From Candidatus Falkowbacteria bacterium (GTDB lineage Bacteria > Patescibacteriota > Patescibacteriia > Patescibacteriales > WJLG01): a DNA stretch of 64,000 nucleotides. This document shows, one piece after another, positions 26,626-60,728 of this stretch. The stretch covers positions 36,466 through 100,465 of the forward strand of contig CAVVFV010000001.1 in assembly GCA_963747695.1 (NCBI GenBank), in the 5' to 3' direction. Made by a program: the position numbers and the translations under genes. Numbering within the stretch: the first letter of the stretch is position 1; every line of letters starts with the position of its first letter. The notes beneath the pieces were generated by a model. That model was not told the origin of the DNA, ran no database searches, and worked only from the letters and a program-made list of their open reading frames with translations.

Positions 26626-26709
26626 ATTGTTATATTGTTATATTGCTATATTGTTAATGATTTTTAAAATCATTGCACAACAATATGACAATATAACAAT
26701 ATGGCAATG
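26626..26709. repeat. family A ('caatat') long hairpin
   Basis: The left arm has TTGNTATA 8-mers (ttgttatattgttatattgctatattgtt). The right arm has TATANCAA 8-mers (aacaatatgacaatataacaatatggcaa). Confidence 0.8.
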
Positions 26710-26754
26710 CCTTTCATGGAACAGAATTTTTAATTAAGCAATAGTTGGGGTTAT

Positions 26755-26958
26755 ATGAAAAATATGTCTAAAAGATGTGATATTTGCGGGCAAGGCCCGA
26801 CTCGGGGAGCGAAACGTTCCCATTCCAACCGCCAAACTCTCAAGCGGCAATATTTGAACTTGCAAACCGCCACGATCGGCGGCAAGAAAGTCAAACTTTG
26901 CGCCCGCTGTCTGAAAACTTCCAAAAAATCGGCGAAAGCCGCCGCCAAGAAAAAATAA
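26755..26958 (+). CDS. rpmB: 50S ribosomal protein L28
   Basis: MSKRCDICGQGPTRGAKRSHSNRQTLKRQYLNLQ is L28-like. The start may be 26764. Confidence 0.85.
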   Translation: MKNMSKRCDICGQGPTRGAKRSHSNRQTLKRQYLNLQTATIGGKKVKLCARCLKTSKKSAKAAAKKK

Positions 26959-26960
26959 CC

Positions 26961-27050
26961 AATAAAAAATACCAGATATTTAAAAAAATATTAAAATATT
27001 TAAATATTGAATTATTTTTTAAAATATTGGTTATTTGATATTGGATATTT
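26961..27050. repeat. family G ('ccaatatcaaataacc') hairpin-like repeat
   Basis: aatattggttatttgatattgg is shared with 51541-51566 (tttgatattggttatttgatatt). Confidence 0.55.
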
Positions 27051-27069
27051 TAGAAATATTCCAATTTTT

Positions 27070-27663
27070 ATGCTTATCGGAATTTTCATTATCGTTGTCC
27101 TAATCTTTTCGGCTATTGTCCATGAGTATATGCATGGCTGGATGGCCAACGAGCTCGGCGATCCGACGGCCAAGAATGCCGGACGTTTGACGTTAAATCC
27201 GTTAGCGCACCTTGATCTTTTCGGTTCGGTGCTGCTGCCGATTTTTTTGTATTTTACCACCGGATTCATTTTCGGCTATGCCAAACCGGTGCCCTACAAT
27301 CCCTTCAATCTTCGCGATCCGAAATACGATCCGGTCAAAGTGGCGCTAGCCGGCCCGCTCTCCAATCTGGTTTTGGCGATTTTTTTCGGCTTGTTCATCC
27401 GCTTTGTTCCGCTTTCCAATCAGTTGTTGGTGCAATTGCTCGACGTGATCGTGGAAATAAATCTGATTTTATTTATTTTCAACATCCTGCCGATTCCGCA
27501 ATTGGACGGCTCGCGGGTTATTTTTCCTTTTTTACCCAGACCGATCCAGGAATTCTATCTGCGCACCGAGCGCTACGGCACGATCATCGCCCTGCTTTTC
27601 GTCCTGCTCGCCTTTCCCTTTATTGCCGTTATCGTTGATTTTCTTTTTAAATTGATTGTCTGA
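27070..27663 (+). CDS. site-2 protease family (M50) membrane metalloprotease
   Basis: HEYMHGW (HExxH), LNPLAHLDLFGS, and several hydrophobic segments. ATG 27070 is preferred to the TTG at 27007, which lies inside repeat DNA. Confidence 0.7.
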   Translation: MLIGIFIIVVLIFSAIVHEYMHGWMANELGDPTAKNAGRLTLNPLAHLDLFGSVLLPIFLYFTTGFIFGYAKPVPYNPFNLRDPKYDPVKVALAGPLSNLVLAIFFGLFIRFVPLSNQLLVQLLDVIVEINLILFIFNILPIPQLDGSRVIFPFLPRPIQEFYLRTERYGTIIALLFVLLAFPFIAVIVDFLFKLIV

Positions 27664-27788
27664 CGCAGGTCTGGCTTTAAATTGAATTTTATAAATACCG
27701 AGAATGACTCGGTATTTTTGATATTCTGAAGGCTCTTGACAGCAGAATTTCACTGTGCTACTATGGTAATACAGTAAAACATATCCTT

Positions 27789-28103
27789 ATGAATAGCTAT
27801 AATTTCGACAAAACCAGCACCGATCTCTTCCGGGCGATCTTGAACCTGAAGACGGTCGGAGAAGCGGAGAAATTTTTTCGCGACCTCTGCACGGCAGAGG
27901 AACTTGATGAGCTGGGAGAAAGATGGCAGATCGCCAAGCTTTTATCCGGCGGAGTTTCTTATCGTGACATCGCTCAAAAATTGAAAGTAAGCACGACTAC
28001 GGTGAGCCGGGTCGCCGCCTGGCTTAATAATGGCGCCGGCGGATATAACTTGATCTTGAAACGCTTAAATGGCCATCATCGCAATTCAGTCTCAACCGGG
28101 TAA
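27789..28103 (+). CDS. TrpR-like YerC/YecD family protein
   Basis: LFRAILNLKTVGEAEKFFRDLCTAEELDELGERWQIAKLL..GVSYRDIAQKLKVSTTTVSRV. Confidence 0.75.
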   Translation: MNSYNFDKTSTDLFRAILNLKTVGEAEKFFRDLCTAEELDELGERWQIAKLLSGGVSYRDIAQKLKVSTTTVSRVAAWLNNGAGGYNLILKRLNGHHRNSVSTG

Positions 28104-28198
28104 GAATTGCTTTGATTTGTCATAAATGAACTCAATTCTCTCCCGGGTGGGAGAGTTTTTTGTTCTTTAATCTCAATCCTTTAGAAAAGGGGTGGCCT

Positions 28199-29122
28199 AT
28201 GCAGCGGTTGATCGATTATTTTCAAAACGGCAGGTTGGCGGATGATCAAAACCGGTCATTCGGCGTGGAAGTTGAAACGCTTTTTGTCGATGCCGGCAAC
28301 CGGCCGATTTCTTTGGCGACTTCCCAGGCGATTTGGCGGAGTTTGGTGGAAGATTTCGGCTGGGAGGCGACGGAAACCAGGAAGGGAAAGTTGGTGGAGC
28401 TGGTAAAGAATGATTTTCATTTAATTTACGAATTGGGACGGCACAATTTTGAGATCACTACTCCCGCCGAACTGGTTAGCGATTGTGGGCAGCTTTTTCG
28501 GGCTTATCGGATGATCGAAACGGAAATTTTTTTGGCAGCGTCATCTTGTGGCGCTCGCCCTTTGCTCAAGGGCTGGGACGGATTCAGGAATAACACTTTG
28601 ATTTTACCTGACCGGCGCGATGAGATTTGGGTCGAATTAGACGGTTTAAAGCCGCTCAGTTTGCTGAGTCATACGGCCTGCATCCATTTTAATCTCGATT
28701 TGTGTTCGGTCGAGGAAGGTTGGGAATTTATGGCGAAGCTGAAGGAAAAATATCAGCAGCTCGGTTGGCCGAAACGCAGCAATGGCTGGGCCTGGCGGGA
28801 ATATCTCAAGACTTCCCGGGCCAATTATGAATCGGGCCGATATGGCTGGCCGCCCGCTAAATCCTTGGGCGGCTATTGTCGAAAGCTCTCGACCTTCAGG
28901 TTGGTCATGAATAAAAGGGCGGGAAGACTGTCCGTCGCCAATCCGGCAATGCCATTTACCCAAACTTTGGATCCGGACATCAATCTTTTTCTGCGTTCGG
29001 TCTGGTGGATATTCCGTCTTCGGGTAAGAGGAGGAAGATTAGTCCTGGAAATTCGGGACGTGCCCAGAGGGATTCCTTTGGAAGAGGCTTGGGGGATCAT
29101 TAAAAATACCATCGGTATTTGA
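28199..29122 (+). CDS. short GCS2-like carboxylate-amine ligase (second copy in window)
   Basis: SFGVEVETLFVD and IYELGRHNFEITTPA parallel the motifs of the 2693 gene. ATG 28199 follows aaaagggg. Confidence 0.5.
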   Translation: MQRLIDYFQNGRLADDQNRSFGVEVETLFVDAGNRPISLATSQAIWRSLVEDFGWEATETRKGKLVELVKNDFHLIYELGRHNFEITTPAELVSDCGQLFRAYRMIETEIFLAASSCGARPLLKGWDGFRNNTLILPDRRDEIWVELDGLKPLSLLSHTACIHFNLDLCSVEEGWEFMAKLKEKYQQLGWPKRSNGWAWREYLKTSRANYESGRYGWPPAKSLGGYCRKLSTFRLVMNKRAGRLSVANPAMPFTQTLDPDINLFLRSVWWIFRLRVRGGRLVLEIRDVPRGIPLEEAWGIIKNTIGI

Positions 29123-29138
29123 TCAATCCTTCATCCTG

Positions 29139-29171
29139 CCGGTCGGTTAGCAAAAAAAGCTAGCCGACTGG
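29139..29171 (+). other. 13-bp RNA hairpin between the GCS2-like and AstE/AspA-like genes
   Basis: ccggtcggttagc-aaaaaaa-gctagccgactgg. All 13 positions pair on the + strand if two G-U wobbles are allowed; they would be A-C mismatches on the minus strand. Confidence 0.5.
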
Positions 29172-29196
29172 ATTTAATCAACTAATTATTTAAGAT

Positions 29197-29904: not shown

Positions 29905-29999
29905 TCGAATTACAATTGGCTGATATTAAAGTAAATTAAGACGAGTGAAGAAAATAATATCGGCACGCTAGATTATGCAAAGGTTAATTTTTAAAATCC

Positions 30000-30028
30000 T
30001 TGACTTATTTACAAGTATTTGATAAATT
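30000..30028 (+). promoter_or_regulatory. sigma70-like promoter upstream of rpsL
   Basis: TTGACT (30000-30005), a 17-nt spacer, then TAAATT (30023-30028). Confidence 0.45.
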
Positions 30029-30078
30029 ATAGGTAATCAATATCCCGATTAGTCGGGATTGTTTTAATAACACAAAAA

Positions 30079-30162
30079 ATTGTTATATTGTTATATTGCT
30101 ATATTGTTAGGAGCTCATAAATCCAACAATATGACAATATAACAATATGGCAATATAGCAAT
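30079..30162. repeat. family A ('caatat') long hairpin
   Basis: attgttatattgttatattgctatattgtt...aacaatatgacaatataacaatatggcaatatagcaat. The arms are nearly identical to the 26626 copy. Confidence 0.8.
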
Positions 30163-30171
30163 TTTTACGAT

Positions 30172-30591
30172 ATGCCAACTATCAATCAATTAGTCCGCAA
30201 GGGAAGACATAGCAAAAGAAAGAAGATGAAGTCGATCGCTTTGCATTTATCCAACGATACTTTGCATCGTAAGAAGACGGTTTCCGCCCATGGCGCGCCT
30301 TTTAAACAAGGTGTGTGTGTTAAGGTTACTACCACGACTCCGAAGAAACCGAACTCCGCGTTGCGCAAGATCGCCCGCGTCCGTTTGTCCAATGGCATGG
30401 AAGTTACCGCTTACATTCCGGGAATCGGCCACAATCTTCAGGAACACTCGATCGTCTTGATCAAAGGCGGCCGTACCAAAGATTTGCCGGGGTTGCGCTA
30501 CAAGATCATCCGCGGGATGTACGACGCGCAAGGTGTCGAAAATCGCCGCCAATCCCGTTCTCGCTATGGCGCGAAACGGCCCAAGGCATAA
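30172..30591 (+). CDS. rpsL: 30S ribosomal protein S12
   Basis: [12 protein letters not shown]...[10 protein letters not shown]... Confidence 0.97.
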
Positions 30592-30781
30592 TAAATTTTT
30601 ATTTTTTAAATTTTTAAAGAATTTTTAAGCCTTAATTTCTAAATATCAGCTGGAATTTTAGATTTAAAAATTAAAAATTCCGATTTCTTTAAAAATTACA
30701 AAATTTAAAAATTAAATTGAACCATTACTTATTTCAAAATTTAAAATTCAAGTATAATAATAACAAATTCTATATAATACT

Positions 30782-31249: not shown

Positions 31250-31258
31250 TTTATATAA

Positions 31259-31289
31259 AATGCCTTTTTGAAAGGGGCATTTTATTTTA
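31259..31289 (+). terminator. rho-independent terminator after rpsG
   Basis: aatgccttt pairs with aaaggggcatt (two G-U pairs), followed by ttttatttt. Confidence 0.55.
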
Positions 31290-31300
31290 AGAAAAAGAGA

Positions 31301-31383
31301 TTGCTATATTGTCATATTGTTATATTGTTGCGCAACGATAGTAACAATTTCGGCAATATAACAATATAGCAATATAACAATAT
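31301..31383. repeat. family A ('caatat') long hairpin
   Basis: ttgctatattgtcatattgttatattgttgcgcaac...cggcaatataacaatatagcaatataacaatat. It ends 6 nt before the fusA ATG. Confidence 0.8.
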
Positions 31384-31389
31384 TTTTTT

Positions 31390-33477
31390 ATGCCTCGAGA
31401 CTACGCCTTAGACAAAGTAAGAAATATCGGTATCATGGCTCACATCGACGCCGGAAAAACAACCTTTTCCGAGCGTGTGCTTTTTTATACCGGCAAGAAA
31501 CATAAGATCGGCGAAGTGCACGAGGGCGCGGCGGAAATGGACTGGATGGAACAGGAAAAAGAGCGCGGCATCACCATCACTTCCGCGGCCACGACTTGTT
31601 TTTGGAAAGACCATAAGATCAACTTGATCGATACTCCCGGCCACGTGGATTTTACCGTTGAAGTGGAGCGCTCGCTCCGCGTTTTGGACGGCGCCATCGC
31701 TGTCTTTGACGGCTCGCAGGGCGTGGAACCGCAATCGGAAACTGTCTGGCGTCAGGCTGATAAATACGGCGTGCCTCGTTTGTGTTTCATCAACAAGATG
31801 GATAAGATGGGTGCGGATTTTTATATGAGCTTGGAATCGATCCAGAAACGTCTTAATGATAAAGCAGTCGCAATCCAATTGGCGATCGGCGCCGAAGGAA
31901 CTTTTACCGGCGTGATCGATTTGATTGTGATGAAGGCTTTTAAATTTGAAGGAAACTTCGGTGAGAAAATAGTGGAAATGGAAATTCCGGCTGACTTGAA
32001 AGAGAAAGCGGAAAAATATCGCGTTGAATTAGTGGAAAAGGCCGCGGAGTGCGACGAAAAAACTACTGAAAAATATTTGGGCGGCGAAGAGATTACCGTT
32101 GAAGAATTAAAAGCCGCGATCAGAAAAGGCGTGATCGCCAATCAGCTTTATCCGGTTTTGTGCGGTACGGCTTTGCAGAATATCGGCGTGCAGCTGGCTT
32201 TGGATGCGGTGGTTGCTTATTTGCCTTCTCCGTTGGATGTGAAAGCTATCGTGGCTACCGATGTTGATGATTTGGAAAAGAAGATCGAAGTAAAAGTCGC
32301 TGATAATGAACCGTTCGTCGGTCTGGCGTTTAAGATCGCCACCGATCCTTTTGTCGGCAAGCTTTGTTTTGTCCGCGTTTATTCGGGAATTCTCGAAGCC
32401 GGCACTTATGTTTTGAATGCTAACACTGGAAATAAAGAACGCATCGGCCGCATCGTCCGGATGCACGCCAATCACCGCGAAGAAGCCGCGGATGTCTGTG
32501 CTGGAGATATCGCCGCCGTGGTCGGTTTGAAAGCCACGACCACCGGCAATACTTTGTGCGACGAACGCCGTCCGGTCCTTTTGGAAAGCATCGTCTTCCC
32601 GGAACCGGTCATTAAGATCGCGGTCGAACCGAAAACCAAAGTCGATCAGGAAAAGATGGGTGTTGCCTTGCAGAAATTGGCTGAAGAAGATCCGACTTTC
32701 CGAGTCGAGACTGATGAAGAAACCAACCAGACTTTGATCTCCGGGATGGGCGAATTGCATTTGGATATCATCGTTGACCGGATGCGCCGTGAATTCGGCG
32801 TCGAAGCTAACGTCGGCAAGCCGCAAGTATCTTATCGTGAAACGATCCGCAAAGAAGCGGAGGCGGAAGGAAAATATATCAAACAGTCGGGCGGACGCGG
32901 CCAATACGGCCATTGCGTGCTGCGCATGGAACCGAATGAAACCGGCAAGGGTTTTGAATTCTTGAATGAAACCAAGGGCGGCTCGATTCCTAGAGAATTT
33001 ATTCCGGCGATTGAAAAGGGCGTTAAGGAAGCTTTGAATCAGGGCGTGGTCGCGGGTTATCCGATGGTCGATTTCAAAGTCGCCGTCACCGATGGCAGCT
33101 ACCACGAAGTCGACTCTTCCGAAATCGCCTTTAAGATGGCGGCCATCATGGGTTTCCGCGAGGCTTCCCGCAAAGCCGATCCGATTTTGCTTGAACCGAT
33201 AATGAAAGTTGAAGTCGTTACGCCGGAAGAATATATGGGCAATGTGGTGGGCGATTTGAATTCCCGCCGCGGCCAGATCGATGAAATGTCCCAACGCGGC
33301 AATGCCAAGGTTATCGACGCCAAGGTGCCGTTAGCCGAAATGTTCGGCTACGTCACTGAATTACGTTCGATGTCCCAGGGCCGCGCCACTTCGACGATGG
33401 AATTTTTCGAATATAAAGAAGTGCCAAGGAATGTGCTGGAAAAGATCAAAGAAGGGAAGAGCGGGACGAGTAAATAA
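31390..33477 (+). CDS. fusA: elongation factor G
   Basis: [22 protein letters not shown], and full-length EF-G architecture. Confidence 0.98.
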
Positions 33478-33483
33478 TTTTAA

Positions 33484-33566
33484 ATTGTTATATTGCTATA
33501 TTGTCATATTGTTAAAAGTTTTTTTTCGTTGCGCAACAATATAACAGTATAACAATATAGCAATTG
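33484..33566. repeat. family A ('caatat') long hairpin
   Basis: attgttatattgctatattgtcatattgtt...gcgcaacaatataacagtataacaatatagcaat. Confidence 0.8.
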
Positions 33567-33612
33567 CAAATATGTTGACGCAAAACACTTTTCAGTTTAA
33601 AATAATATCATT

Positions 33613-36533: not shown

Positions 36534-36602
36534 TATTTAGTTTTAAGTTCATTTTTATAGATAAAGCCCGACTATTGTTTTTTTAACTCCCTTATTCAAG
36601 AA

Positions 36603-36690
36603 GTTAATTAGTCGATTAGTCACTTAGTTGAATAACTGATAATGTTTTTCAAATTGTAGACTAAGTACCTAATCAACTAATTAACTAATT
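36603..36690. repeat. family F ('cgattagttaattag') hairpin
   Basis: gttaattagtcgattagtcacttagt...actaagtacctaatcaactaattaac. The right arm is identical to 18040-18070. Confidence 0.7.
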
Positions 36691-36972: not shown

Positions 36973-37701
36973 ATGAAATTTATCGTCGGTAAGAAAATTG
37001 AGATGACCCAGATCTGGCAAGGAGAAAATGTCATGCCCGTTACCAAAGTTCAGGCCGGACCGTGTTTTGTTACTCAAATTAAAACTAAAGAAAATGACGG
37101 CTATGAAGCGGTGCAGATCGGTTTTGGCAATAAAAAAGAAAAGAACAGCAAAAAACCGCAACTCGGCCATTTGAAACAAGTTAAGGCCAAGGGAATTACC
37201 GAAAATTTTCAGTTTTTACGTGAATTTATTCCGGGAAAGGATAATAAGAATGCTTTTGAGATCGGCGATAAGATCGATGTCAGCGCTTTCGCTGCCGGCG
37301 ATATTGTCGCTGCGACCGGAGTTTCCAAAGGCCGCGGTTTTCAAGGCGTGGTAAAACGGCACGGCTTCCAGGGCGGCCGGAAATCTCATGGCAATAAAGA
37401 CCAATTAAGAATGCCGGGTTCCACCGGCGCGACCGGCGCGGGCCACGTTTTCAAAGGCACGAAAAAACCGGGACGGATGGGCACGGAAACGACTACCACC
37501 AAGAATCTGGAAATCATCGAAATCGATCAAGCCAACAATTTTTTATATGTTAAAGGCGGAATTGCCGGGGCGAGAAACAGCTTGGTGTTGATCCAGGGAG
37601 CCGGCGATATGATTCTCCTGAAACCGGCCGTTGAAAAAAAGGAAGAAATCAAGCCGGTGGAAGCAGCGGCTGAAAAGGAAGAAGTAAAAAGTAATAAGTA
37701 A
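36973..37701 (+). CDS. rplC: 50S ribosomal protein L3
   Basis: MKFIVGKKIEMTQIWQGENVMPVTKVQAGPC...GFQGVVKRHGF. The track's start at 36874 translates the hairpin repeat. Confidence 0.94.
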   Translation: MKFIVGKKIEMTQIWQGENVMPVTKVQAGPCFVTQIKTKENDGYEAVQIGFGNKKEKNSKKPQLGHLKQVKAKGITENFQFLREFIPGKDNKNAFEIGDKIDVSAFAAGDIVAATGVSKGRGFQGVVKRHGFQGGRKSHGNKDQLRMPGSTGATGAGHVFKGTKKPGRMGTETTTTKNLEIIEIDQANNFLYVKGGIAGARNSLVLIQGAGDMILLKPAVEKKEEIKPVEAAAEKEEVKSNK

Positions 37702-37712
37702 AAAGTAAAAAA

Positions 37713-40389: not shown

Positions 40390-40518
40390 AAATCCGAAGC
40401 ACGAAATCCGAAATCCTAAACAAATTCAAAGCATTAAATCCGAAATTCAAAACGTTTTGAATTTTGAACATTTGGATTTTGAATTTGTTTAGGATTTGGT
40501 GCTTAGAATTTCGGATTT
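40390..40518. repeat. family C ('aaatccgaaat') long hairpin
   Basis: aaatccgaagcacgaaatccgaaatcctaaacaaattcaaa...aaaacgtttt...tttgaatttgtttaggatttggtgcttagaatttcggattt. A second copy lies at 46976-47105. Confidence 0.8.
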
Positions 40519-41105: not shown

Positions 41106-41206
41106 TTAGTATTTAGTATAAAGTATCTGGTATTTAGTATATTATTTTCGAAGAGAAAATTTTTAACTAGACACCAAATACTTTATACCAAATACTTTAT
41201 ACTAAT
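41106..41206. repeat. family E ('tatttagtat / ataccaaatac') hairpin
   Basis: ttagtatttagtataaagtatctggtatttagtat...acaccaaatactttataccaaatactttatactaa. Confidence 0.75.
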
Positions 41207-42671: not shown

Positions 42672-42923
42672 ATGGATCAGGATAAAAAAGTCAGCAAAAG
42701 AAAGTTTGTCGGAATAGTTACCAGCGACAAGATGGACAAGACCATCTCGGTCCAGGTGATCACTGTTAAGCGCAACCAAAAATATAAAAAGACTTATTTC
42801 ATTTCCAAGAAATATAAGGTTCATGATGAAAAAAATCAGTTCAAGGAAGGGGATAAGGTGGAATTCATCGAATGCCGCCCGTTAAGCAAAGATAAGAAAT
42901 GGAGAGCGATCGGCAAAAAGTAA
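42672..42923 (+). CDS. rpsQ: 30S ribosomal protein S17
   Basis: KRKFVGIVTSDKMDKTISVQV...KYKVHDEKNQFKEGDKVEFIECRPLSKDK. Confidence 0.9.
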   Translation: MDQDKKVSKRKFVGIVTSDKMDKTISVQVITVKRNQKYKKTYFISKKYKVHDEKNQFKEGDKVEFIECRPLSKDKKWRAIGKK

Positions 42924-42978
42924 AAAGTTAAAAGTAAAAAGTTAAAAGTAAAAAGTTAAAAGTAAGAAGTAGAAAGTT
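42917..42978. repeat. heptamer tandem repeat GTWAAAA (family J)
   Basis: gtaaaaa gttaaaa gtaaaaa gttaaaa gtaaaaa gttaaaa gtaagaa gtagaaa starts at the rpsQ stop. Related runs lie at 22226-22268, 37684-37711 and 45853-45890. Confidence 0.75.
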
Positions 42979-43825: not shown

Positions 43826-44365
43826 ATGAGATTAAAAGAATATTACAAGAAAGAGATTCTGCCGGAATTGAAAAAACGGTTGAATATCCAGAATGATCTG
43901 GCCGCGCCCCGCCTGGTGAAGGTAGTGCTTAACGTTGGTTTTGGCCGGAACACCAAAGACAAGGAATTGATTAAAATCATCGAAGAAAATTTGACGATCA
44001 TCGCCGGACAGAAACCGATGTTGAATAAGGCCAAAAAAGCCGTTTCCGCTTTCAAGATCAAGGAAGGAATGATCATCGGCGCTTCAGTCACTTTGCGCGG
44101 TCAGCGGATGTGGGATTTTATGGAAAGATTAGTGAATGTCTATCTGCCTCGCGTCCGGGATTTCCGGGGAGTCGATCCCAAGTCGATCGACCGCACCGGT
44201 TGTCTGACCATCGGCTTCAAGGACATCATGCCTTTTGCCGAGATCGAAGTCAGAGATCTGGAAAAATTGCACGGTTTGGAAATTTGTATTGCCACCACCG
44301 CCAAAAGCGCGGCGGCGGGATTGGAACTTTTCCGCTTAATGAAATTCCCGTTGAGAAAAGAATAA
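43826..44365 (+). CDS. rplE: 50S ribosomal protein L5
   Basis: MRLKEYYKKEILPELKKRLNIQNDLAAPRLVKVVLNVGFG. Confidence 0.95.
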   Translation: MRLKEYYKKEILPELKKRLNIQNDLAAPRLVKVVLNVGFGRNTKDKELIKIIEENLTIIAGQKPMLNKAKKAVSAFKIKEGMIIGASVTLRGQRMWDFMERLVNVYLPRVRDFRGVDPKSIDRTGCLTIGFKDIMPFAEIEVRDLEKLHGLEICIATTAKSAAAGLELFRLMKFPLRKE

Positions 44366-44370
44366 TTATT

Positions 44371-44468
44371 AGTATCTCGTATCTCGTATTTCGTATCTCG
44401 GATATTTTTTAATAAAAATGTCGGGGATCCAAAATACGAAATACGAAATACCAAATACGAAATACGAA
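44371..44468. repeat. family D ('tcgtatt / aaatacgaaat') hairpin
   Basis: agtatctcgtatctcgtatttcgtatctcg...aaaatacgaaatacgaaataccaaatacgaaatacgaaa. Related words recur at 47575-47605. Confidence 0.75.
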
Positions 44469-44473
44469 AAAAT

Positions 44474-44659
44474 ATGGCTCGAACAGCGTTAATAGTCAAA
44501 GCGAAAAGAAAACCGAAATTTTCCACCCGGAAGATCAGACGTTGCTGGCGCTGCGGCCGTAATCACGGCTATATGCGTGATTTCGAATTGTGCCGCATTT
44601 GTTTTCGCGAGTTGGCCGAAAAAGGCGAGCTGCCCGGAATCAAAAGAGCATCCTGGTAA
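44474..44659 (+). CDS. rpsN: 30S ribosomal protein S14, type Z (61 aa, zinc form)
   Basis: [48 protein letters not shown]. Confidence 0.92.
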
Positions 44660-45854: not shown

Positions 45855-45897
45855 GTAAGTAAAAAGTAAAAAGTTAAAAGTAAAAAGTAGGAATTAT

Positions 45898-46975: not shown

Positions 46976-47105
46976 AAATCCGAAGCACGAAATCCGAAAT
47001 CCGAAACAAATTCAAAATTCAAATGACAAAAATTAGAAACGTTTTGAATTTTGGATTTTAATCTTTTAAATTTGTTTAGGATTTAGAGCTTAGGATTTCG
47101 GATTT
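46976..47105. repeat. family C ('aaatccgaaat') long hairpin
   Basis: aaatccgaagcacgaaatccgaaatccgaaacaaattcaaa...aacgttttgaatttt...aaatttgtttaggatttagagcttaggatttcggattt. Confidence 0.8.
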
Positions 47106-48868: not shown

Positions 48869-49031
48869 AATCAATTATAAATTAAAAATTATAAATTATA
48901 AATAAAGCCCTTTCGGGGGCTTTTATTATTGGTTAATTTGTAGTATAATTCATATGTAAAATGAATAAAAAATATCTAATGATTGTTGTCGGTATTACTG
49001 ATAATTTTTAATTTTTAATTTATAATTGATT
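48869..49031. repeat. perfect 22-nt inverted repeat pair (family I, 'aattataaatt') bracketing a terminator and a TATAAT box
   Basis: aatcaattataaattaaaaatt (48869-48890) is the exact reverse complement of aatttttaatttataattgatt (49010-49031). Confidence 0.85.
48904..48927 (+). terminator. rho-independent terminator after secY
   Basis: aaagccc-tttc-gggggcttt followed by tattatt. Confidence 0.6.
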
Positions 49032-50476: not shown

Positions 50477-50498
50477 ATTTGAGGAGCTTATATTATGG

Positions 50499-50612
50499 CA
50501 TTAGTTATTAGTCGATTAGTTAATTAGGGCTTAGTTGGATTACCACGAAGTTTGTTAATAATAATGGAGCTAATCTTTTACTCAACTAATTACCTAATTA
50601 ACTAAGTGCCTA
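50499..50612. repeat. family F ('cgattagttaattag') hairpin
   Basis: cattagttattagtcgattagttaattagggcttagttgg...ctcaactaattacctaattaactaagtgcctaa. Confidence 0.7.
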
Positions 50613-50652
50613 AATAAGCGTCTTTAAAAGAAGAAGGTAAATTATAATATAA

Positions 50653-51480: not shown

Positions 51481-51570
51481 ATATCCAATATAAAATAACC
51501 AATATCAAAAAAATAATTAAATATTATAATATTAAAATATTTTTTTGATATTGGTTATTTGATATTTGCC
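51481..51570. repeat. family G ('ccaatatcaaataacc') hairpin
   Basis: atatccaatataaaataaccaatatcaaaaaa...ttttttgatattggttatttgatatttgcc. Confidence 0.75.
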
Positions 51571-51966: not shown

Positions 51967-52034
51967 TAAAATGTAAAATGAAAATCTCAAAGTGAAAAAT
52001 TATTTTACATTTTGAGATTTAACTTTTTCATTTG
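51966..52034. repeat. family H ('aaatgtaaaat / attttgagattt') hairpin
   Basis: gtaaaatgtaaaatgaaaatctcaaagtgaaaaat tattttacattttgagatttaactttttcatttgg. A related copy lies at 58294-58389. Confidence 0.7.
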
Positions 52035-52795: not shown

Positions 52796-52911
52796 TGTTT
52801 GTAAATTTTTAATTTTGTAATTTTTGAATTTTTAAATAATTTTTAAAGTTTAATTTTTAAAAATTAAGATTTAGGATTTATTTAAAAATTTAAAAATTAA
52901 AAATTCTACTT

Positions 52912-56366: not shown

Positions 56367-56395
56367 AAAATTATAAATTTGAATTGTAAATATTT

Positions 56396-57238: not shown

Positions 57239-57257
57239 ATCGGCAGTTTCGAGGAGG

Positions 57258-57296: not shown

Positions 57297-57330
57297 ATTG
57301 GGCGTTATTCTTTTGCCAAATTCGGTTACA

Positions 57331-57563
57331 TAATGCGAATACTGCGAATTATAATCAAATACTACGAACAAAATTCGACGTGAAGGCGTTGTTTTAGTTT
57401 TAAAAAGTAAGACAAATCGGTGGATAAATGGCCTTCCGAAGACCGGTAATTTCTGATAAAATATGAACATATGCGAAGACTGTAAATGATCTGACGAATC
57501 GTGAGGATAATTTTGTTAAATAGTTCGTAGTATTCGCGTATAATTTGTAGTATTCGCATCATA
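57331..57563. repeat. family B hairpin, subfamily B2, with about 135 nt inserted between the arms
   Basis: Left-arm words are atgcgaatactgcgaattataatcaaatactacgaac. The right arm aaatagttcgtagtattcgcgtataatttgtagtattcgcatcat is near-identical to 36108-36150. Confidence 0.7.
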
Positions 57564-57580
57564 TAATCAAGCTTTTCGAA

Positions 57581-58294
57581 ATGATAAACGTTAAACTGGA
57601 AAAATTTGAGGGTCCGCTATCTTTATTGCTGAAGATCATTGAGACGGAAAAGATGGATATCGCTGAGATTTCGTTGGCGAAAATCGCCGATCAATACGTG
57701 GAATTCATCCGCACGACCGCCGATATCGATCCTGACGCGATGGCGGATTTTTTAGTGGTGGCGGCCAAGCTGCTTTATCTGAAATCGCGGGCGCTTTTAC
57801 CTTATCTTTTCCCGGCCGAAGCGGAGGATGCTGATGATCTGGAACGGCAATTGAAAATGTACCGGGAATTTCTGGAGGCGATGAAAAAGTTGGAACAGCG
57901 GTTGAAGGAAAAAAAGTTTATGTTTGCGCCGAGCGAGCGGAAACTCTGGAAAATGATCGGCACGGAAGAAAAATTTTTCGCCCCGCCGAAAAAATTGGTC
58001 AAAGAAGATCTGGCGGCGGTTTTCCGGGAATTTTTGGTAAACAAGAAAATCATCTGTCTGGAAGAAGAAACGATCCAATGCAAGGTGAATATCGAGGAAA
58101 AGATCCGGGGCATCCGCGATGCGCTCTTAGCCAAGATCAATTTAAGTTTCCGGGAATTTTTGGCCAAGGCCGAATCTAAAACCGAGATCATCGTCAGTTT
58201 TTTGGCGGTGCTGGAATTAATGAAGCAGAAAACAATCTCGGTGGAGCAAAGCGAATTGTTTGCCGAAATATTTATTAGCAGCAAAAATGAATAA
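57581..58294 (+). CDS. scpA: segregation and condensation protein A
   Basis: FEGPLSLLLKIIETEKMDIAEISLAKIADQY. Confidence 0.88.
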   Translation: MINVKLEKFEGPLSLLLKIIETEKMDIAEISLAKIADQYVEFIRTTADIDPDAMADFLVVAAKLLYLKSRALLPYLFPAEAEDADDLERQLKMYREFLEAMKKLEQRLKEKKFMFAPSERKLWKMIGTEEKFFAPPKKLVKEDLAAVFREFLVNKKIICLEEETIQCKVNIEEKIRGIRDALLAKINLSFREFLAKAESKTEIIVSFLAVLELMKQKTISVEQSELFAEIFISSKNE

Positions 58295-58389
58295 TGAAAA
58301 TTGTAAAAGTCAAAATGTAAAATTATGGAGTCCGCGGCGGACGAAATTAATTAATTTTCCATTTTGAGATTTACATTTTAAAATTACAA
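58294..58389. repeat. family H hairpin
   Basis: atgaaaattgtaaaagtcaaaatgtaaaatt...tccgcggcgga...aattttccattttgagatttacattttaaaattacaat. Confidence 0.65.
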
Positions 58390-58390
58390 T

Positions 58391-59038
58391 ATGTTTTTAT
58401 CATCACAAATAGAGTCATTGTTATTCATTTCCGGCCGGCCGATGTCGGCCAAGGAATTATCGGATTTGACCGAAAGTTCAGTTAAGGATATCGAGCAAGC
58501 CGGAGAAAAATTGGCGGCCGATTACAAGGAAAAAAATGCCGGAACCCAGATCATCAAAAACGGATCAAGCTGGCAGATGGTGACCTCGTCGGATAACGCC
58601 GCCCTGATCCAAAAATTCGTTACCGATGAAACAACCGGGGAGTTAACCAGGCCCAGCTTAGAGACCTTGACAATCATCGCTTACCGCGGACCAGTTTCGA
58701 AAACCGATTTGGATCGCATCCGTGGTATAAATTGTTCGCTAATATTACGTAATTTATTAATAAGGGGCTTAGTCGATGTCCGGGAAGACCGAAAAAAAGA
58801 CGAAAGTTATTATACGGTAACGTTTGATTTTTTACGCTTCTTAGGCTTAAATGAGGTTAAGGAATTGCCCGACTATGATAAATTGAGCAAAGATGATACG
58901 ATTGATCGAATCCTCGAGGACAATCCGCTCTCAGAAAAGCTCGGCGTCAATCAGCCGGCATTGGATCTGGCAGGCGGCGAAGATCAGGCGTCGGCAGATG
59001 ACGACGATGAAGATGAACTTGACGAAGAAACTGAATAA
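58391..59038 (+). CDS. scpB: segregation and condensation protein B
   Basis: IESLLFISGRPMSAKELS...TLTIIAYRGPVSKTDLDRIRG. Confidence 0.88.
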   Translation: MFLSSQIESLLFISGRPMSAKELSDLTESSVKDIEQAGEKLAADYKEKNAGTQIIKNGSSWQMVTSSDNAALIQKFVTDETTGELTRPSLETLTIIAYRGPVSKTDLDRIRGINCSLILRNLLIRGLVDVREDRKKDESYYTVTFDFLRFLGLNEVKELPDYDKLSKDDTIDRILEDNPLSEKLGVNQPALDLAGGEDQASADDDDEDELDEETE

Positions 59039-59076
59039 TTAAATCTTTTTATCAGTTGGTGAGGTAATTTGAGATT

Positions 59077-59532
59077 ATGAAAGATGTTTTGGAAAACGAA
59101 TCAATTATCAATCATGAAGTTCATGCTGAAGAATTAGAAAATGACGGCTGGCAGACTTTGAATTGGCACGATTGGAAATATGCGACGCGGGATAAAACCA
59201 TCAAACAGTACCAGACTAAACAGATTGATGAGGCCGTTAAATGGTATTGCCAAACTCATCAGACCACGATTCCCGAGTACGTCAAGAATAAACCGACCGA
59301 AGAATATGACCTGGCGGCGCAATTGAAGATTGGCCAAGCGATCAAAGAATATCTGATGCGGATCGACCCGAATACCGGTCTGAAGGGCAGTGAGATATTT
59401 TCCCGGGAACATTTGATGTATCGCGATTTGCCGGAAGAGACGATCAAAACGGAATATAAGAAATACGAGGAACAGGAAAAAGCCTGGCAAGCAGAGCTGC
59501 TTAAGCGAAGCAAAAGCGAGCCACGGTTCTGA
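59077..59532 (+). CDS. hypothetical protein (151 aa)
   Basis: ORF only. Confidence 0.4.
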   Translation: MKDVLENESIINHEVHAEELENDGWQTLNWHDWKYATRDKTIKQYQTKQIDEAVKWYCQTHQTTIPEYVKNKPTEEYDLAAQLKIGQAIKEYLMRIDPNTGLKGSEIFSREHLMYRDLPEETIKTEYKKYEEQEKAWQAELLKRSKSEPRF

Positions 59533-59574
59533 GGAGGAAATTTTCAGCAGTTATCAATTATTTCTAATAATATT

Positions 59575-60615
59575 TTGCGCAAAAATAAGTTATCTATCAT
59601 ATTTCTCCTGGTTACTGCGGTCGTGGCCGCTTGTTTTTTGTTTTTTAATATTGATTATTCTCTGTTTGGCGCTTATGCCGGTGAAAATCTGGCTAAACCG
59701 CTTTCCGATAGCCCGGGCAAGGTACTGGCGGCCGTGGAAGGCCTGCAGGTGGCGCCGCAGCAGACTTACGCGGCTTTTTATCCCGAATACAATCTGCCCC
59801 AGAATGCCAATAAAATAGGCACGCCCAGCCAGATCAGCGGCGGTTACAATCTGGCGATTGAGGCTTCTTCCAGCATCGCGATTGATTGCCACAGCGGCGA
59901 AATCCTGTGGGACAATGAATCCGACACGGTCCGGCCGATCGCCAGTATTACCAAACTGATGACGGCGTTGGTTTTTCTGAGTTCCAATCCTGACTGGAAT
60001 AAAATTTATGAATTGCAGAAAGAAGACGTGCGCGTCGGCGGTAAAAGTTATATTTATCCCGGCGATCAGGTCAAGGTCAAAGATCTTTTTTATTTGACCC
60101 TGGTCGGTTCGGATAATACGGCGGCGGTCGCCTTGGCCAGATCAATGGGGTTGACTGAGGCCGAGTTCGTCGCCAAAATGAACCAACAGGCCAAGGATTT
60201 CGGCTTGACCAAGACCAAATTCGAGGATATTTCCGGTTTAAGCGACGGCAACGTTTCCACGGCCCGCGAGATTTTGGCCTTGGCGAAAAGGTGTCTCGCT
60301 AATGAAAAAATCCGCGACACGACGATTGAAGAAAATTACGAATTTTCTACCGTGGGCGGACGCGATGTCCAAGTCCAATCGACCGACGCGCTCCTTTCAG
60401 TTTTTCCGGTTGACGGCATAAATATCATCGGCGGCAAAACCGGCCATACTGATGAGGCCGGCTATTGTTTCGTCGGCGAATTCATCAATCAAGCCGGCCA
60501 TAAAATAATGTCAGTCGTGATGGGCACCAACTCCGACGAAGATCGTTTCGCCCAAACCAAGAAACTGGTGAAATGGGCATATGATAATTATAGTTGGACT
60601 GAAAGTAATAAATAG
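59575..60615 (+). CDS. D-alanyl-D-alanine carboxypeptidase (S11 / PBP5-like)
   Basis: SITK (SxxK), SDN, KTG (GGKTGHT), an N-terminal membrane anchor, and a TTG start. Confidence 0.8.
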   Translation: MRKNKLSIIFLLVTAVVAACFLFFNIDYSLFGAYAGENLAKPLSDSPGKVLAAVEGLQVAPQQTYAAFYPEYNLPQNANKIGTPSQISGGYNLAIEASSSIAIDCHSGEILWDNESDTVRPIASITKLMTALVFLSSNPDWNKIYELQKEDVRVGGKSYIYPGDQVKVKDLFYLTLVGSDNTAAVALARSMGLTEAEFVAKMNQQAKDFGLTKTKFEDISGLSDGNVSTAREILALAKRCLANEKIRDTTIEENYEFSTVGGRDVQVQSTDALLSVFPVDGINIIGGKTGHTDEAGYCFVGEFINQAGHKIMSVVMGTNSDEDRFAQTKKLVKWAYDNYSWTESNK

Positions 60616-60654
60616 ACTTATTGCGATAAATATAATATAATTTAAACAAACTAA

Positions 60655-60728
60655 TGTTATATTGTCATATTGTTATATTGTTACGCAACGATTTAAAAAT
60701 GTTTAACAATATAGCAATATAACAATAT
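60655..60728. repeat. family A ('caatat') long hairpin
   Basis: tgttatattgtcatattgttatattgttacgcaacg...aacaatatagcaatataacaatat. Confidence 0.8.

What the first reader, a model, noticed from the sequence alone, without database searches (positions are those of the whole stretch)
26626..60728. Family A: six copies of a hairpin built from 8-mer words TTGNTATA / TATANCAA
Copies lie at 26626-26709 (before rpmB), 30079-30162 (before rpsL), 31301-31383 (before fusA), 33484-33566 (after fusA) and 60655-60728 (before tpiA). Counting the 26.6 and 30.1 kb pair, which have almost identical arms, six arm pairs are seen in total across these loci. Each 5' arm is three or four tandem 8-mers (ttgttata, ttgctata, ttgtcata). 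Each 3' arm is the complementary word set. The order of the variant words is permuted between copies, so the stems are imperfect and include several potential G-U pairs. Four loops contain gcgcaac or acgcaacg. This reads like a combinatorial word code laid on a conserved hairpin plan.
Basis: seen in the sequence. Interest (0 to 1): 0.65.

Follow-up and report, generated by a model that had tools for sequence, protein, structure and literature searches.

The report
Interspersed palindromes built from 8-mer words
Five near-identical 75-90 bp palindromic hairpin elements, each arm a short tandem run of the word TTGYYATA, sit between essential translation genes of a small-genome bacterium; they are one of many fast-turnover repeat families of this kind in the genome, not a gene-specific code.

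Summary
Five elements (not six) lie at the stated coordinates. Each has 3-4 tandem TTGYYATA words, a 16-33 nt loop, then 3-5 TATRRCAA words. The word pattern gives 20 hits against 0.02 expected, and folding z-scores are -5 to -8.6.

The "combinatorial word code" reading is not supported:
- Word orders fall into two inherited subfamilies: A1 (26.6 and 30.1 kb) and A2 (31.3, 33.5 and 60.7 kb).
- Variant positions in the two arms are not correlated (20 of 38 Watson-Crick; permutation mean 23).
- G.U pairs (11) do not clearly exceed A.C mismatches (7).

Family A is one of at least eight families of tandem-word palindromes (7-9 nt words). Together they fill intergenic spacers from 22 to 62 kb. The closest relative (genes 81-86% identical) carries other families at the same three spacers, with flanks conserved up to the hairpin base. 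More distant relatives mostly lack such hairpins.

Best reading: a REP/MITE-like interspersed palindrome family. Its arms grow by slippage, it spreads by copying, and it is co-transcribed, so it should form about 30 bp AU-rich RNA hairpins, plausibly RNase III substrates. I classify it as a new variant of a known kind, of moderate interest.

The parts
26626..26708 (.). Family A copy 1 (subfamily A1), between rpoC and rpmB (L28). 5' arm 26626-26655 (words TTGTTATA TTGTTATA TTGCTATA TTGTT). Loop 26656-26678, which holds a mini-hairpin and GCACAAC. 3' arm 26679-26708.
   Evidence: I18: 30 nt arms, 87% complementary; -34.5 kcal/mol, z = -8.2
30075..30166 (.). Family A copy 2 (A1), in the predicted 5' UTR of rpsL (S12). 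Word arms are 30079-30109 and 30125-30162 (5 words in the 3' arm). A5/T5 flanks extend the stem. The loop GGAGCTCATAAATCC resembles the ancestral local sequence seen in relatives. The element ends 5-9 nt before the ATG at 30172.
   Evidence: I15, I19; -36.1 kcal/mol, z = -8.6
31292..31389 (.). Family A copy 3 (A2), between a terminator-like hairpin after rpsG (S7) and the fusA ATG at 31390. Word arms are 31300-31329 and 31354-31383. The loop starts GCGCAACGAT.
   Evidence: I11: 36 nt, 86%; -30.7 kcal/mol, z = -6.4
33477..33571 (.). Family A copy 4 (A2), starting 7 nt after the fusA stop codon and followed by a promoter-like site. Word arms are 33484-33514 and 33535-33564. The loop ends TTGCGCAAC.
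   Evidence: I12: 37 nt, 84%; -26.9 kcal/mol, z = -5.3
60654..60730 (.). Family A copy 5 (A2), in the predicted 5' UTR of tpiA. Arms are 60654-60683 and 60704-60730. The loop starts ACGCAACGAT. The element ends 10 nt before the ATG at 60741.
   Evidence: I22: 27 nt, 93%; -27.4 kcal/mol, z = -7.2
30000..30059 (+). Context for copy 2: sigma-70-like promoter TTGACT-17-TAAATT (30000-30028) and a small leader hairpin ATCCCGATTAGTCGGGAT (30042-30059). Both are conserved in relatives. They place copy 2 inside the rpsL 5' UTR.
   Evidence: (same promoter and a leader stem with differing stem sequences in roughly 15 of the closer relatives, by eye)
31255..31288 (+). Context for copy 3: canonical terminator-like hairpin (AUAAAAUGCCUUUU / AAGGGGCAUUUUAU) plus a U-run, directly upstream of copy 3.
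   Evidence: fold of spacer 31250-31389
33575..33603 (+). Context for copy 4: promoter-like TTGACG-17-TAAAAT downstream of copy 4. Its orthologue in L120 lies inside the loop of a family B hairpin.
60613..60641 (+). Context for copy 5: promoter-like TAGACT-17-TATAAT ending 13 nt before copy 5. The hairpin would start about 6 nt from the predicted 5' end of the tpiA mRNA.

Best explanation
Family A is a small family of interspersed palindromic repeats, 75-90 bp long and REP/REPIN- or MITE-like in behaviour. Each arm is a tandem array of the 8-nt word TTGYYATA. It is one of at least eight such tandem-word palindrome families (7-9 nt words) that have multiplied in the AT-rich intergenic spacers of this lineage. 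The lineage is Patescibacteria/CPR-like by inference; I did not establish the taxonomy directly.

Shown:
- The copies descend from one another. There are two subfamilies with inherited arm mismatches.
- They are not tied to particular genes or sites. The closest relative carries other families in the same spacers.
- Turnover is faster than about 15% gene divergence.
- The arm variants are uncorrelated transitions, not a code.

Inferred origin and spread:
- Word arrays arise and change length by replication slippage.
- Arms are made or kept complementary, and are copied to nearby spacers, by template switching or short-tract gene conversion rather than classical cut-and-paste transposition. The grounds are: no target-site duplication, identical arms with unrelated loops, arms flanking pre-existing local DNA, and local clustering of family members.

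Inferred consequence:
- All genes are on the + strand and promoter-like sites lie upstream of at least two copies. The elements are therefore transcribed inside 5' UTRs and intercistronic regions.
- They should fold into roughly 30 bp AU-rich RNA duplexes. These are plausible RNase III substrates that would cut or insulate the flanking cistrons.
- This effect is generic to any family, is tolerated because start sites here mostly lack Shine-Dalgarno sequences, and is not gene-specific regulation.
For: Copies and enrichment:
- Five complete copies, no solo arms, 20 hits against 0.02 expected.
- Two subfamilies share word order and the same mismatches. The A1 arms are identical at the 26.6 and 30.1 kb loci.
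- No compensatory change at variable positions, and zero C-G pairs there.

No strand signal:
- Over all 20 long hairpins in the window the arms give 609 Watson-Crick pairs, 29 G.U, 32 A.C and 62 other.

The wider class:
- The same architecture with other words (CGAAT, AAATCCG, TTAGTAT, GTATCTC/AAATACG, TTAGTC, TAATTTT, AAAATGT, CCAATAT) fills spacers between 22.5 and 62 kb.
- Density is 3.1 hairpins per 10 kb in the window, 2.2 in L120, 0.5 in 79 more distant relatives and 0 in shuffles.

Turnover:
- L120 genes are 81-86% identical in nucleotide sequence. L120 has a CGCAGCG-word hairpin before rpmB. It has family B hairpins before rpsL and after fusA, exactly where the window has Family A. Flanks are conserved up to the hairpin base.
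- In 54 relatives the rpsL promoter and leader hairpin are conserved, but the stretch before the ATG is empty or holds unrelated hairpins or word arrays.

Arms around local DNA:
- In L120 the orthologous local promoter (23 of 29 nt identical to window 33575-33603) lies inside a family B loop.
- The loop of the 30.1 kb copy resembles the ancestral local sequence GAGCTCAAAATC.

Transcription context:
- Promoter-like sites lie upstream of the rpsL and tpiA copies.
- A precedent exists for a transcribed heptamer-repeat hairpin cut by RNase III (PMC12721329).
- The assembler broke contigs inside the arms, as expected for dispersed repeats.
Against: - No transposase, RAYT gene or any copying enzyme has been linked to the elements, and no insertion event was caught with clean boundaries.
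- Only 64 kb of the genome was seen, so the genome-wide copy number is unknown.
- Template switching alone would create perfectly complementary arms. It does not explain how both imperfect arms of A1 are identical at two loci while their loops differ.
- Variation is confined to word positions 4/5, while TTG and A6 are almost invariant. The same TTGYYAWA hairpin layout occurs in several other CPR phyla. Both facts hint at sequence-specific constraint, which a purely selfish or neutral model does not predict.
- All 20 long hairpins lie in the rpoBC / str / ribosomal-protein part of the window and none in the 22 kb cell-wall cluster. This could mean selection for function in highly expressed operons.
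- Transcription and RNase III cleavage are inferred, not observed.
Confidence: 0.55

Rival explanations
1. Selected cis-acting RNA element. The hairpins are maintained because they process or stabilise polycistronic mRNAs (intercistronic RNase III sites, as in phage T7 early mRNA), or because they tune translation of genes that lack a Shine-Dalgarno sequence. The word sequence is free to vary and only the long stem matters.
For: - The hairpins abut start codons at 0-15 nt in many spacers, and all 20 long hairpins lie in the highly expressed rpoBC / str / ribosomal-protein part of the window.
- Different families occupy the same site before rpsL in the window and in L120, and unrelated hairpins occur there in L197, L146 and L171. 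This would fit selection for some hairpin at that site.
- The A1 copies are 4.6 and 8.4 kcal/mol more stable on the + strand.
- Experimental precedent: the hmw1A 5' UTR (PMC12721329).
Against: - G.U does not exceed A.C: 29 against 32 overall and 11 against 7 in Family A, from only two independent subfamilies.
- No compensatory changes.
- Many close relatives have no hairpin at these sites.
- Some arm pairs flank an internal promoter, so the main transcript would carry only one arm.
- Placement next to start codons is expected anyway when elements insert into very short spacers.
Confidence: 0.2
2. DNA-level protein-binding array. The TTGYYATA words are iterated binding sites in inverted arrangement for a nucleoid, regulatory or recombinase protein. 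Alternatively they act as decoys for RNA polymerase sigma factor, because the words resemble the -35 hexamer (TTGNNA) and the word junctions resemble the -10 hexamer (TATATT).
For: - Word positions TTG and A6 are nearly invariant, and positions 4/5 vary only between pyrimidines.
- Polarity is fixed. The TTGNNATA array lies 5' of the loop in 5 of 5 window copies and in 21 of 22 hairpin-type loci in the genome scan.
- The same layout occurs in Parcubacteria, Komeilibacteria, Peribacteria, Peregrinibacteria, Moranbacteria and Shapirobacteria contigs, including genomes of 56-59% GC.
- No strand bias in mismatches.
Against: - At least eight unrelated word families share the architecture. Each would need its own protein, in what is inferred to be a reduced genome.
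- An 8 bp period does not match the helical repeat.
- The in-phase spacings between the -35-like and -10-like hexamers are 14 or 22 nt. The only 16 nt option uses a weak TATTGT, scoring 8-9 of 12.
- Sites are swapped for other families in the closest relative.
- TTGTTATA arrays also occur as plain direct repeats in Bacteroidota, Colwellia, Clostridium and giant-virus contigs. Recurrence of the word is therefore not specific, and the polarity count rests on few independent lineages.
Confidence: 0.1
3. Intrinsic, possibly bidirectional, transcription terminators.
For: - Copy 4 starts 7 nt after the fusA stop codon and is followed by a promoter-like site.
- Copies 2 and 3 are flanked by an A-run and a T-run.
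- In other genomes some word hairpins sit between convergent genes: L022, L037 and L058.
Against: - Copy 2 lies between a conserved promoter and the essential rpsL gene. Copy 5 lies between a promoter-like site and tpiA.
- Copy 3 is itself preceded by a canonical GC-containing terminator.
- The stems are about 30 bp with one G-C pair per 8 bp. The terminator scan reports none of them, while the genome has ordinary GC-rich terminators elsewhere.
Confidence: 0.05
4. Independent in-situ microsatellite expansion at each spacer, with no copying between loci.
For: - Arms are tandem 8-mers with unequal word numbers: 3 or 4 against 3 to 5.
- Direct-only arrays of other words exist in the window, for example AAAAAGT x9 at 42915-42977.
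- TTGTTATA arrays arise in many unrelated AT-rich genomes.
Against: - Both arms are always present, in one polarity.
- The A1 arms are identical at two loci, mismatches included. The A2 copies share word order and the loop motif CGCAACGAT.
- Five loci hold the same word against 0.02 expected.
Confidence: 0.05

Closest known systems
REP / REPIN elements (repetitive extragenic palindromes; Bertels & Rainey 2011, PMC3116915)
   Same: - Short, extragenic, interspersed hairpin-forming repeats.
- Several families per genome.
- Arms better conserved than the spacer or loop.
- Rapid within-genome turnover.
- Co-transcribed with the flanking genes.
   Different: - REPINs are two inverted REP units, each itself an imperfect palindrome, and are mobilised by a RAYT (Y1) transposase.
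- Here each arm is a direct tandem array of a 7-9 nt word.
- No RAYT gene was seen in the window.
- Arm pairs can enclose local promoters and terminators.
Bacterial MITEs (Correia, ERIC, RUP and others; from my own knowledge)
   Same: - Non-coding, 75-150 bp, with terminal inverted repeats and a variable interior.
- Intergenic and co-transcribed. Some are RNase III substrates or carry promoters.
   Different: - No target-site duplication at any Family A copy.
- No parent insertion sequence with matching ends. The one transposase gene in the window (an rve/IS481-type ORF) has none.
- The inverted repeats are tandem-word arrays.
Long simple-sequence repeats with 5-11 nt units: cyanobacterial STRR heptamers and the TAACTGA repeats of Beggiatoaceae, Cyanobacteria and Bacteroidetes (MacGregor 2015, PMC4679880, which summarises Mrazek et al. 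2007)
   Same: - Tandem 7-8 nt words in intergenic DNA, often directly upstream of start codons that lack a Shine-Dalgarno sequence, including ribosomal protein genes.
- Patchy phylogenetic distribution.
- Slippage proposed as the origin.
   Different: - Those are almost all direct repeats (169 direct sets against 1 inverted in the BOGUAY genome), and one word dominates a genome.
- Here arrays come as inverted pairs forming roughly 30 bp stems, and many different words coexist.
hmw1A 5' UTR hairpin of Haemophilus influenzae (Rapun-Araiz et al. 2025, PMC12721329)
   Same: - A transcribed tandem heptamer array forms one arm of a long 5' UTR hairpin.
- RNase III cleaves the hairpin and this changes expression.
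- It is the best experimental model for what a transcribed word hairpin does.
   Different: - It is a single phase-variable virulence locus.
- Only the left arm is a repeat array; the right arm is a G-rich region.
- It is not a dispersed family.
Eukaryotic foldback transposons (Drosophila FB, Galileo; from my own knowledge, see also PMC4168063)
   Same: - Inverted arms built from short tandem repeats.
- Arm length varies between copies.
- The central region is variable or foreign.
   Different: - They are kilobase-scale, eukaryotic and transposase-dependent.
- Homology is not implied. The resemblance is only architectural.

Membership tests
REP/REPIN | Extragenic, hairpin-forming, multi-copy | tested here: met
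   Five copies, all intergenic, folding z = -5 to -8.6
REP/REPIN | Each half is itself a REP palindrome; the pair forms the REPIN | tested here: not met
   The arms are direct tandem 8-mers with no internal palindrome
REP/REPIN | Cognate RAYT (IS200/IS605-like Y1 transposase) gene in the genome, flanked by REPs | not testable with these tools
   Only 64 kb of the genome is available. None of the roughly 30 ORFs I scanned with Pfam (about a third of the genes in the window, plus four in L120) matched a Y1 transposase.
MITE | Terminal inverted repeats | tested here: met
   Arms of 27-37 nt, 84-93% complementary
MITE | Target-site duplication flanking each copy | tested here: not met
   The flanks of the five copies share no direct repeat. 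Copies 2 and 3 have an A-run on the left and a T-run on the right, which are complementary rather than duplicated.
MITE | Autonomous insertion sequence with the same ends | tested here: inconclusive
   The only transposase gene in the window (14228-15214, rve/IS481-type) has no word-type inverted ends. The rest of the genome was not seen.
Long simple-sequence repeats (LSSR/STRR type) | Tandem units of 5-11 nt, with more copies than chance gives | tested here: met
   Tandem Repeats Finder reports period 8, 3.4-4.8 copies in every arm, and strong enrichment over shuffles
Long simple-sequence repeats (LSSR/STRR type) | Copy number polymorphic within populations (slippage) | not testable with these tools
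   No read-level data. Arms do differ in word number between copies: 3 to 5 words.
Intrinsic terminator | Short GC-rich stem immediately followed by a U-tract, at gene 3' ends | tested here: not met
   The terminator scan reports none of the five. Stems have one G-C pair per 8 bp. Copies 2 and 5 lie between a promoter-like site and the gene.
RNase III-processed repeat hairpin (hmw1A type) | Repeat array transcribed within a 5' UTR and folded into a duplex of at least 20 bp | tested here: inconclusive
   A duplex of about 30 bp is predicted. Promoter-like sites lie upstream of copies 2 and 5, and the rpsL one is conserved in relatives. No transcript data.
RNase III-processed repeat hairpin (hmw1A type) | Cleavage by RNase III with an effect on expression | not testable with these tools
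   Needs RNA end-mapping or an enzyme assay. No rnc gene was identified among the ORFs I scanned in the window.
Known RNA families (Rfam 15) | Match to a curated covariance model | tested here: not met
   Only a tRNA passes the gathering score in the window. In the E-value search the hairpins match only miRNA precursor models, at 28-29 bits against gathering scores of 90-139.

The most novel reading that the evidence does not exclude
The tandem-word palindromes may be a prokaryotic counterpart of foldback elements. In this reading a dedicated but still unknown mechanism, or a protein that reads TTGYYAWA-type words, installs matched arm pairs around pre-existing intergenic DNA, including promoters and terminators. 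This would build exchangeable "insulator" cassettes in the core translation operons of CPR bacteria. Supporting hints:
- the fixed polarity of the word arrays relative to the loop;
- the restriction of variation to word positions 4/5;
- the occurrence of the same layout in several CPR phyla.
Probability: 0.13. Interest if true: 0.75.

Novelty: new variant of a known kind. Interest (0 to 1): 0.45.

Why it matters
The finding shows that the most conserved operons of a reduced bacterial genome (rpoBC, str, S10-spc-alpha) can be filled with palindromes that turn over quickly. Each palindrome is built from tandem 7-9 nt words, and whole elements differ between relatives whose genes are only about 15% diverged.

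Practical consequences:
- These elements break metagenome assemblies. A Logan contig ends inside the arms on both sides of fusA.
- They mislead ORF start calls.

Biological consequences:
- They are a natural system for studying how slippage, template switching or gene conversion create and spread palindromes.
- They also bear on how mRNAs that lack Shine-Dalgarno sequences tolerate or use roughly 30 bp hairpins a few nucleotides from the start codon.

I found no description of this architecture for Patescibacteria in the searchable literature.

Tried and rejected
1. Promoter inside the arms. The words look like -35 (TTGYYA) and -10 (TATATT) hexamers, but the in-phase spacers are 14 or 22 nt. 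The 16 nt option (TTGYYA-N16-TATTGT) scores only 8-9 of 12, and other families have no such feature. Rejected as the main function.
2. RNA-specific selection. G.U against A.C counts are 29:32 over all hairpins and 11:7 in Family A. No signal.
3. Covariation between arms. Permutation test negative.
4. Known RNA family. No Rfam match.
5. Transposon ends. The rve/IS481-type ORF at 14228-15214 has no word-type inverted repeats. Four L120 ORFs had no Pfam hit; three of them lie in or beside the str-operon spacers.
6. Conserved CPR-wide element. The genome scan did find the same hairpin layout in several CPR phyla. However, TTGYYATA arrays also occur as plain direct repeats in Bacteroidota, Colwellia, Clostridium and giant-virus or phage contigs. 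Homology across phyla is therefore unproven.
7. DNA uptake sequences arranged as inverted pairs (Neisseria style). Rejected because many different words coexist, each in few copies.
8. Within-species variation through exact-protein look-ups of S12 and TIM. Neither is on record.
9. Fraction of relatives with extra structure before the rpsL ATG. 22 of 55 have z < -2, but the 75 nt windows often include the conserved leader hairpin. Not decisive.
10. Organism name. Not obtained. The CPR/Patescibacteria assignment is inferred only from where similar hairpins were found in the genome scan and from a DUF5671 protein.

Full report
**1. Observation**

Each has 3-4 tandem copies of TTGYYATA (variants TT, CT, TC), a loop, and then 3-5 copies of TATRRCAA.
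- The two-and-a-half-word pattern occurs 20 times with up to one mismatch, always inside these five loci, against 0.02 expected from dinucleotide shuffles.
- A scan allowing three mismatches adds no solo arm and no degenerate sixth copy.
- Arms are 27-37 nt long and 84-93% complementary.
- As RNA, the + strand folds at -26.9 to -36.1 kcal/mol. No shuffle out of 200 does as well, and z is -5.3 to -8.6. The - strand folds nearly as well.
- Pfam confirms the flanking genes as L28, S12, S7, EF-G and triosephosphate isomerase.
- An independent Logan assembly of the EF-G gene is 100% identical and ends inside the Family A arms on both sides. The elements are therefore real, and they behave as dispersed repeats for assemblers.
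- Corrections: there are five elements, not six. The GCGCAAC/ACGCAACG loop motif is in three loops, not four.

**2. Family A is one member of a much larger class**

Tandem Repeats Finder, the inverted-repeat search and folding of every spacer show that most intergenic spacers between 22.5 and 62 kb hold long hairpins whose arms are tandem 7-9 nt words. The other families are:
- AAATCCG: 40.4 and 47.0 kb.
- TTAGTAT: 41.1 kb.
- GTATCTC/AAATACG: 44.4 kb.
- TTAGTC/ACTAATTA: 36.6 and 50.5 kb.
- TAATTTT: 22.5, 30.6, 48.9 and 52.8 kb.
- AAAATGT: 52.0 and 58.3 kb.
- CCAATAT: 27.0 and 51.5 kb.

An unbiased ungapped scan finds 20 long hairpins in the window and none in six block-shuffled controls. None lies in the first 22 kb, which is a cell-wall gene cluster. 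Density is 3.1 per 10 kb in the window, 2.2 in the closest relative and 0.5 in 79 more distant relatives.

**3. Word order, arm correlation and strand**

Tabulating the words gives two subfamilies.
- A1 (26.6 and 30.1 kb) has 5' arms TT TT CT and reverse-complemented 3' arms (CT) CC TT TC. The two A1 copies have identical arms, including their four arm-arm mismatches.
- A2 (31.3, 33.5 and 60.7 kb) has (TT) CT TC TT and TT CT TT, and shares the loop motif CGCAACGAT or TTGCGCAAC.

The "permutations" are therefore inherited states of copied elements. At the variable positions 20 of 38 pairs are Watson-Crick, 11 are G.U and 7 are A.C. Independence predicts 63% Watson-Crick. Permuting the 3' arm words gives 23.1 +/- 2.0, and P(permutation >= observed) = 0.96. 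No C-G pair occurs.

Over all 20 hairpins the counts are 609 Watson-Crick, 29 G.U, 32 A.C and 62 other. There is no compensatory evolution and no preference for mismatches that would be benign only in + strand RNA. The likely ancestral form is a perfect palindrome, (TTGTTATA)n-TTGCGCAA-(TATAACAA)n. It has since picked up transitions and loop insertions.

**4. Comparative evidence**

A scan of metagenome contigs with EF-G gave 80 related loci.

The closest relative is L120. Its S12 is 97% identical, its EF-G 94%, and its genes 81-86% identical in nucleotide sequence. Gene order is the same, but none of its spacers holds Family A.
- Before rpmB it has a CGCAGCG-word hairpin.
- Before rpsL it has a family B hairpin, exactly where the window has Family A. 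The promoter, leader hairpin and TTTTAATAACA flank are conserved up to the hairpin base.
- After fusA it again has family B.

In 54 relatives the rpsL promoter (CTTGACTTAT-17-TAAATT) is conserved. So is a small leader hairpin whose stem sequence differs between lineages while staying self-complementary. The stretch before the ATG is empty in many relatives (L127, L170, L140, L132, L133). In others it holds unrelated hairpins or word arrays (L197, L146, L171, L150, L153). Turnover is therefore faster than species divergence, and the words are not tied to the genes.

**5. Arms can enclose pre-existing local DNA**

- The promoter-like site downstream of the window's copy 4 (TTGACG-17-TAAAAT, unique in the window) has an orthologue in L120 with 23 of 29 nt identical. 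That orthologue lies inside the loop of the family B hairpin.
- The loop of copy 2 (GGAGCTCATAAATCC) resembles GAGCTCAAAATC and GAGCTCAAATTC, found before the rpsL ATG in L141 and L131.
- In the window, arm pairs at 48870-49023 and at about 57330-57565 enclose a terminator plus a promoter-like site, and more than 130 nt, respectively.

Together with identical arms and unrelated loops, the absence of target-site duplications and the local clustering of families (four of five Family A copies lie within 7 kb), this favours arm-wise copying. Candidate mechanisms are short-tract gene conversion or template switching, with slippage changing word number. Classical transposition of a fixed unit fits less well. 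This step is inference and remains the least satisfactory part of the model.

**6. Position relative to transcription signals**

- All genes are on the + strand.
- Copy 2 lies between a conserved promoter and leader and the rpsL ATG.
- Copy 5 begins about 6 nt after the predicted start site of a TAGACT-17-TATAAT promoter-like site.
- Copy 3 follows a canonical terminator-like hairpin and ends at the fusA ATG.
- Copy 4 starts 7 nt after the fusA stop codon and precedes a promoter-like site.
- Copy 1 lies between rpoC and rpmB.

The contexts are mixed: 5' UTR, intercistronic and 3' end. This fits generic insertion into the only permissive DNA, namely short spacers, rather than one dedicated role. 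The elements are not canonical terminators, because copies 2 and 5 would silence essential genes. By consensus they are also poor promoters.

If transcribed, they form duplexes of about 30 bp. That is the substrate class of RNase III. The experimentally studied hmw1A 5' UTR of H. influenzae shows exactly this behaviour for a heptamer-repeat hairpin (PMC12721329). Most start codons here lack a Shine-Dalgarno motif in the spacers I read, so a hairpin ending 5-10 nt upstream does not destroy a ribosome-binding site.

**7. Wider distribution**

- Hairpin-type layouts with the same TT/CT/CC/TC variants occur in Parcubacteria, Komeilibacteria, Peribacteria, Peregrinibacteria (56-59% GC), Moranbacteria, Shapirobacteria and an unnamed bin. 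They lie next to unrelated genes (hpf, dus, gatC, eno, rplK) and in tandem, divergent or convergent contexts.
- Saprospiraceae and other Bacteroidota have analogous hairpins with GGGATATT/AATATCYC words, sometimes with more than 15 units in one arm.
- The TTGNNATA array is 5' of the loop in 21 of 22 hairpin-type loci, but these represent few independent lineages.
- Plain direct TTGYYATA arrays occur in many unrelated bacteria and in giant-virus or phage contigs. Recurrence of the word alone is therefore not evidence of homology.

**8. Comparison with known systems**

In behaviour the elements resemble REP/REPIN and MITE families.
- They fail the REPIN anatomy test, because the arms are not palindromic REPs.
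- They fail the MITE target-duplication test.
- No RAYT gene or parent insertion sequence could be tested beyond the window.

Their arms are long simple-sequence repeats of the heptamer/octamer class known from cyanobacterial STRR and the TAACTGA repeats (PMC4679880), but those are direct arrays dominated by one word. Architecturally they recall eukaryotic foldback transposons. No Rfam family matches. Literature searches for CPR/Patescibacteria hairpin or MITE repeats found nothing relevant.

**9. Verdict**

The "combinatorial word code" is not supported. The best explanation (confidence about 0.55) is a fast-evolving interspersed palindrome family built from tandem words. It is co-transcribed and probably processed as double-stranded RNA, with no gene-specific function.

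Open points that keep a more novel reading alive (about 0.13):
- the paired installation of arms around local DNA;
- the restriction of variation to word positions 4/5;
- the fixed polarity;
- the concentration in translation operons.

Noticed in passing
L120 has copies 82-94% identical in their arms at other spacers, including the two spacers (before rpsL and after fusA) that hold Family A in the window.
   Followed up: partly
window 40390-40518 and 46976-47105; 41108-41196; 44362-44475; 36602-36686 and 50491-50617; 22544-22621, 30592-30714, 48870-49023, 52814-52903; 51969-52033 and 58298-58379; 26952-27051 and 51487-51566: Further tandem-word palindrome families: AAATCCG, TTAGTAT, GTATCTC/AAATACG, TTAGTC/ACTAATTA, TAATTTT, AAAATGT and CCAATAT. 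They fill spacers of the str, S10-spc-alpha and neighbouring operons. Several overlap the ORF starts called by the mechanical ORF list, which are therefore probably wrong.
   Followed up: partly
window 42915-42977, 45857-45889, 37673-37711: Direct-only tandem heptamer arrays (AAAAAGT x9, AAGTAAA x4.7, AAAAGTA x5.6) at the ends of ribosomal-protein-sized ORFs, with no clear inverted partner.
   Followed up: no
window 48870-49023 and L120 8097-8266: Word-hairpin arms that enclose a terminator-like hairpin plus a promoter-like site (window), or the orthologue of the promoter at window 33575-33603 (L120). The main transcript would then carry only one arm.
   Followed up: partly
window 30000-30059 and orthologous positions in L120-L170: A conserved rpsL promoter (CTTGACTTAT-17-TAAATT) is followed by a small leader hairpin (ATCCYGA...TCRGGAT) and a U-rich run. 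The stem sequence differs between relatives while staying self-complementary. This looks like an unannotated S12-operon leader or attenuator.
   Followed up: partly
window 62535-62735, next to tRNA-Thr(GGT) at 62736-62809 and ORF 62810-63097: Two exact 100 nt tandem copies, each starting with the first 17 nt of the tRNA-Thr gene followed by a GC-rich hairpin (CCCCGCCCACTGATGGGGCGGGG). They lie immediately upstream of the intact tRNA. A 95 aa GIY-YIG nuclease-domain ORF follows the tRNA.
   Followed up: partly
window 14228-15214: An rve/IS481-type transposase ORF (328 aa) inside the cell-wall gene cluster. No clear terminal inverted repeats were found, and it has no relation to the word hairpins.
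   Followed up: partly
L120 4330-4602 and 5165-5968: The closest relative has extra ORFs without Pfam hits inside the str operon: a 90 aa ORF between rpsL and rpsG, and a 267 aa ORF between rpsG and fusA. The 267 aa ORF contains a signal-peptide/lipobox-like segment (MKKISTVIKFFALIAIGAFVLSAC) a few codons after its called TTG start. Both ORFs are absent from the window.
   Followed up: partly
L123, L124, L126, L129, L131, L133 and other loci: In many relatives the EF-G match spans about 3.0 kb instead of 2.07 kb, which suggests an insertion (possibly an intein) in fusA.
   Followed up: no
window 17070-17317, 17606-18543, 22108-22585; L120 1985-2350: GC-rich structured repeats (CCCCTCCTCGGGAGGGG..., GTCCCGAGGCGGAGAC...) are shared between long window spacers and an L120 spacer, at 86-87% identity. 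This is a different, non-word repeat class.
   Followed up: no
L021, L022, L026, L029, L035, L049, L058, L078, L095, L107 (Saprospiraceae and other Bacteroidota): Analogous hairpins with GGGATATT / AATATCYC words, sometimes with 15-25 units in one arm. The G3N5 arrays are also potential G-quadruplex formers.
   Followed up: no
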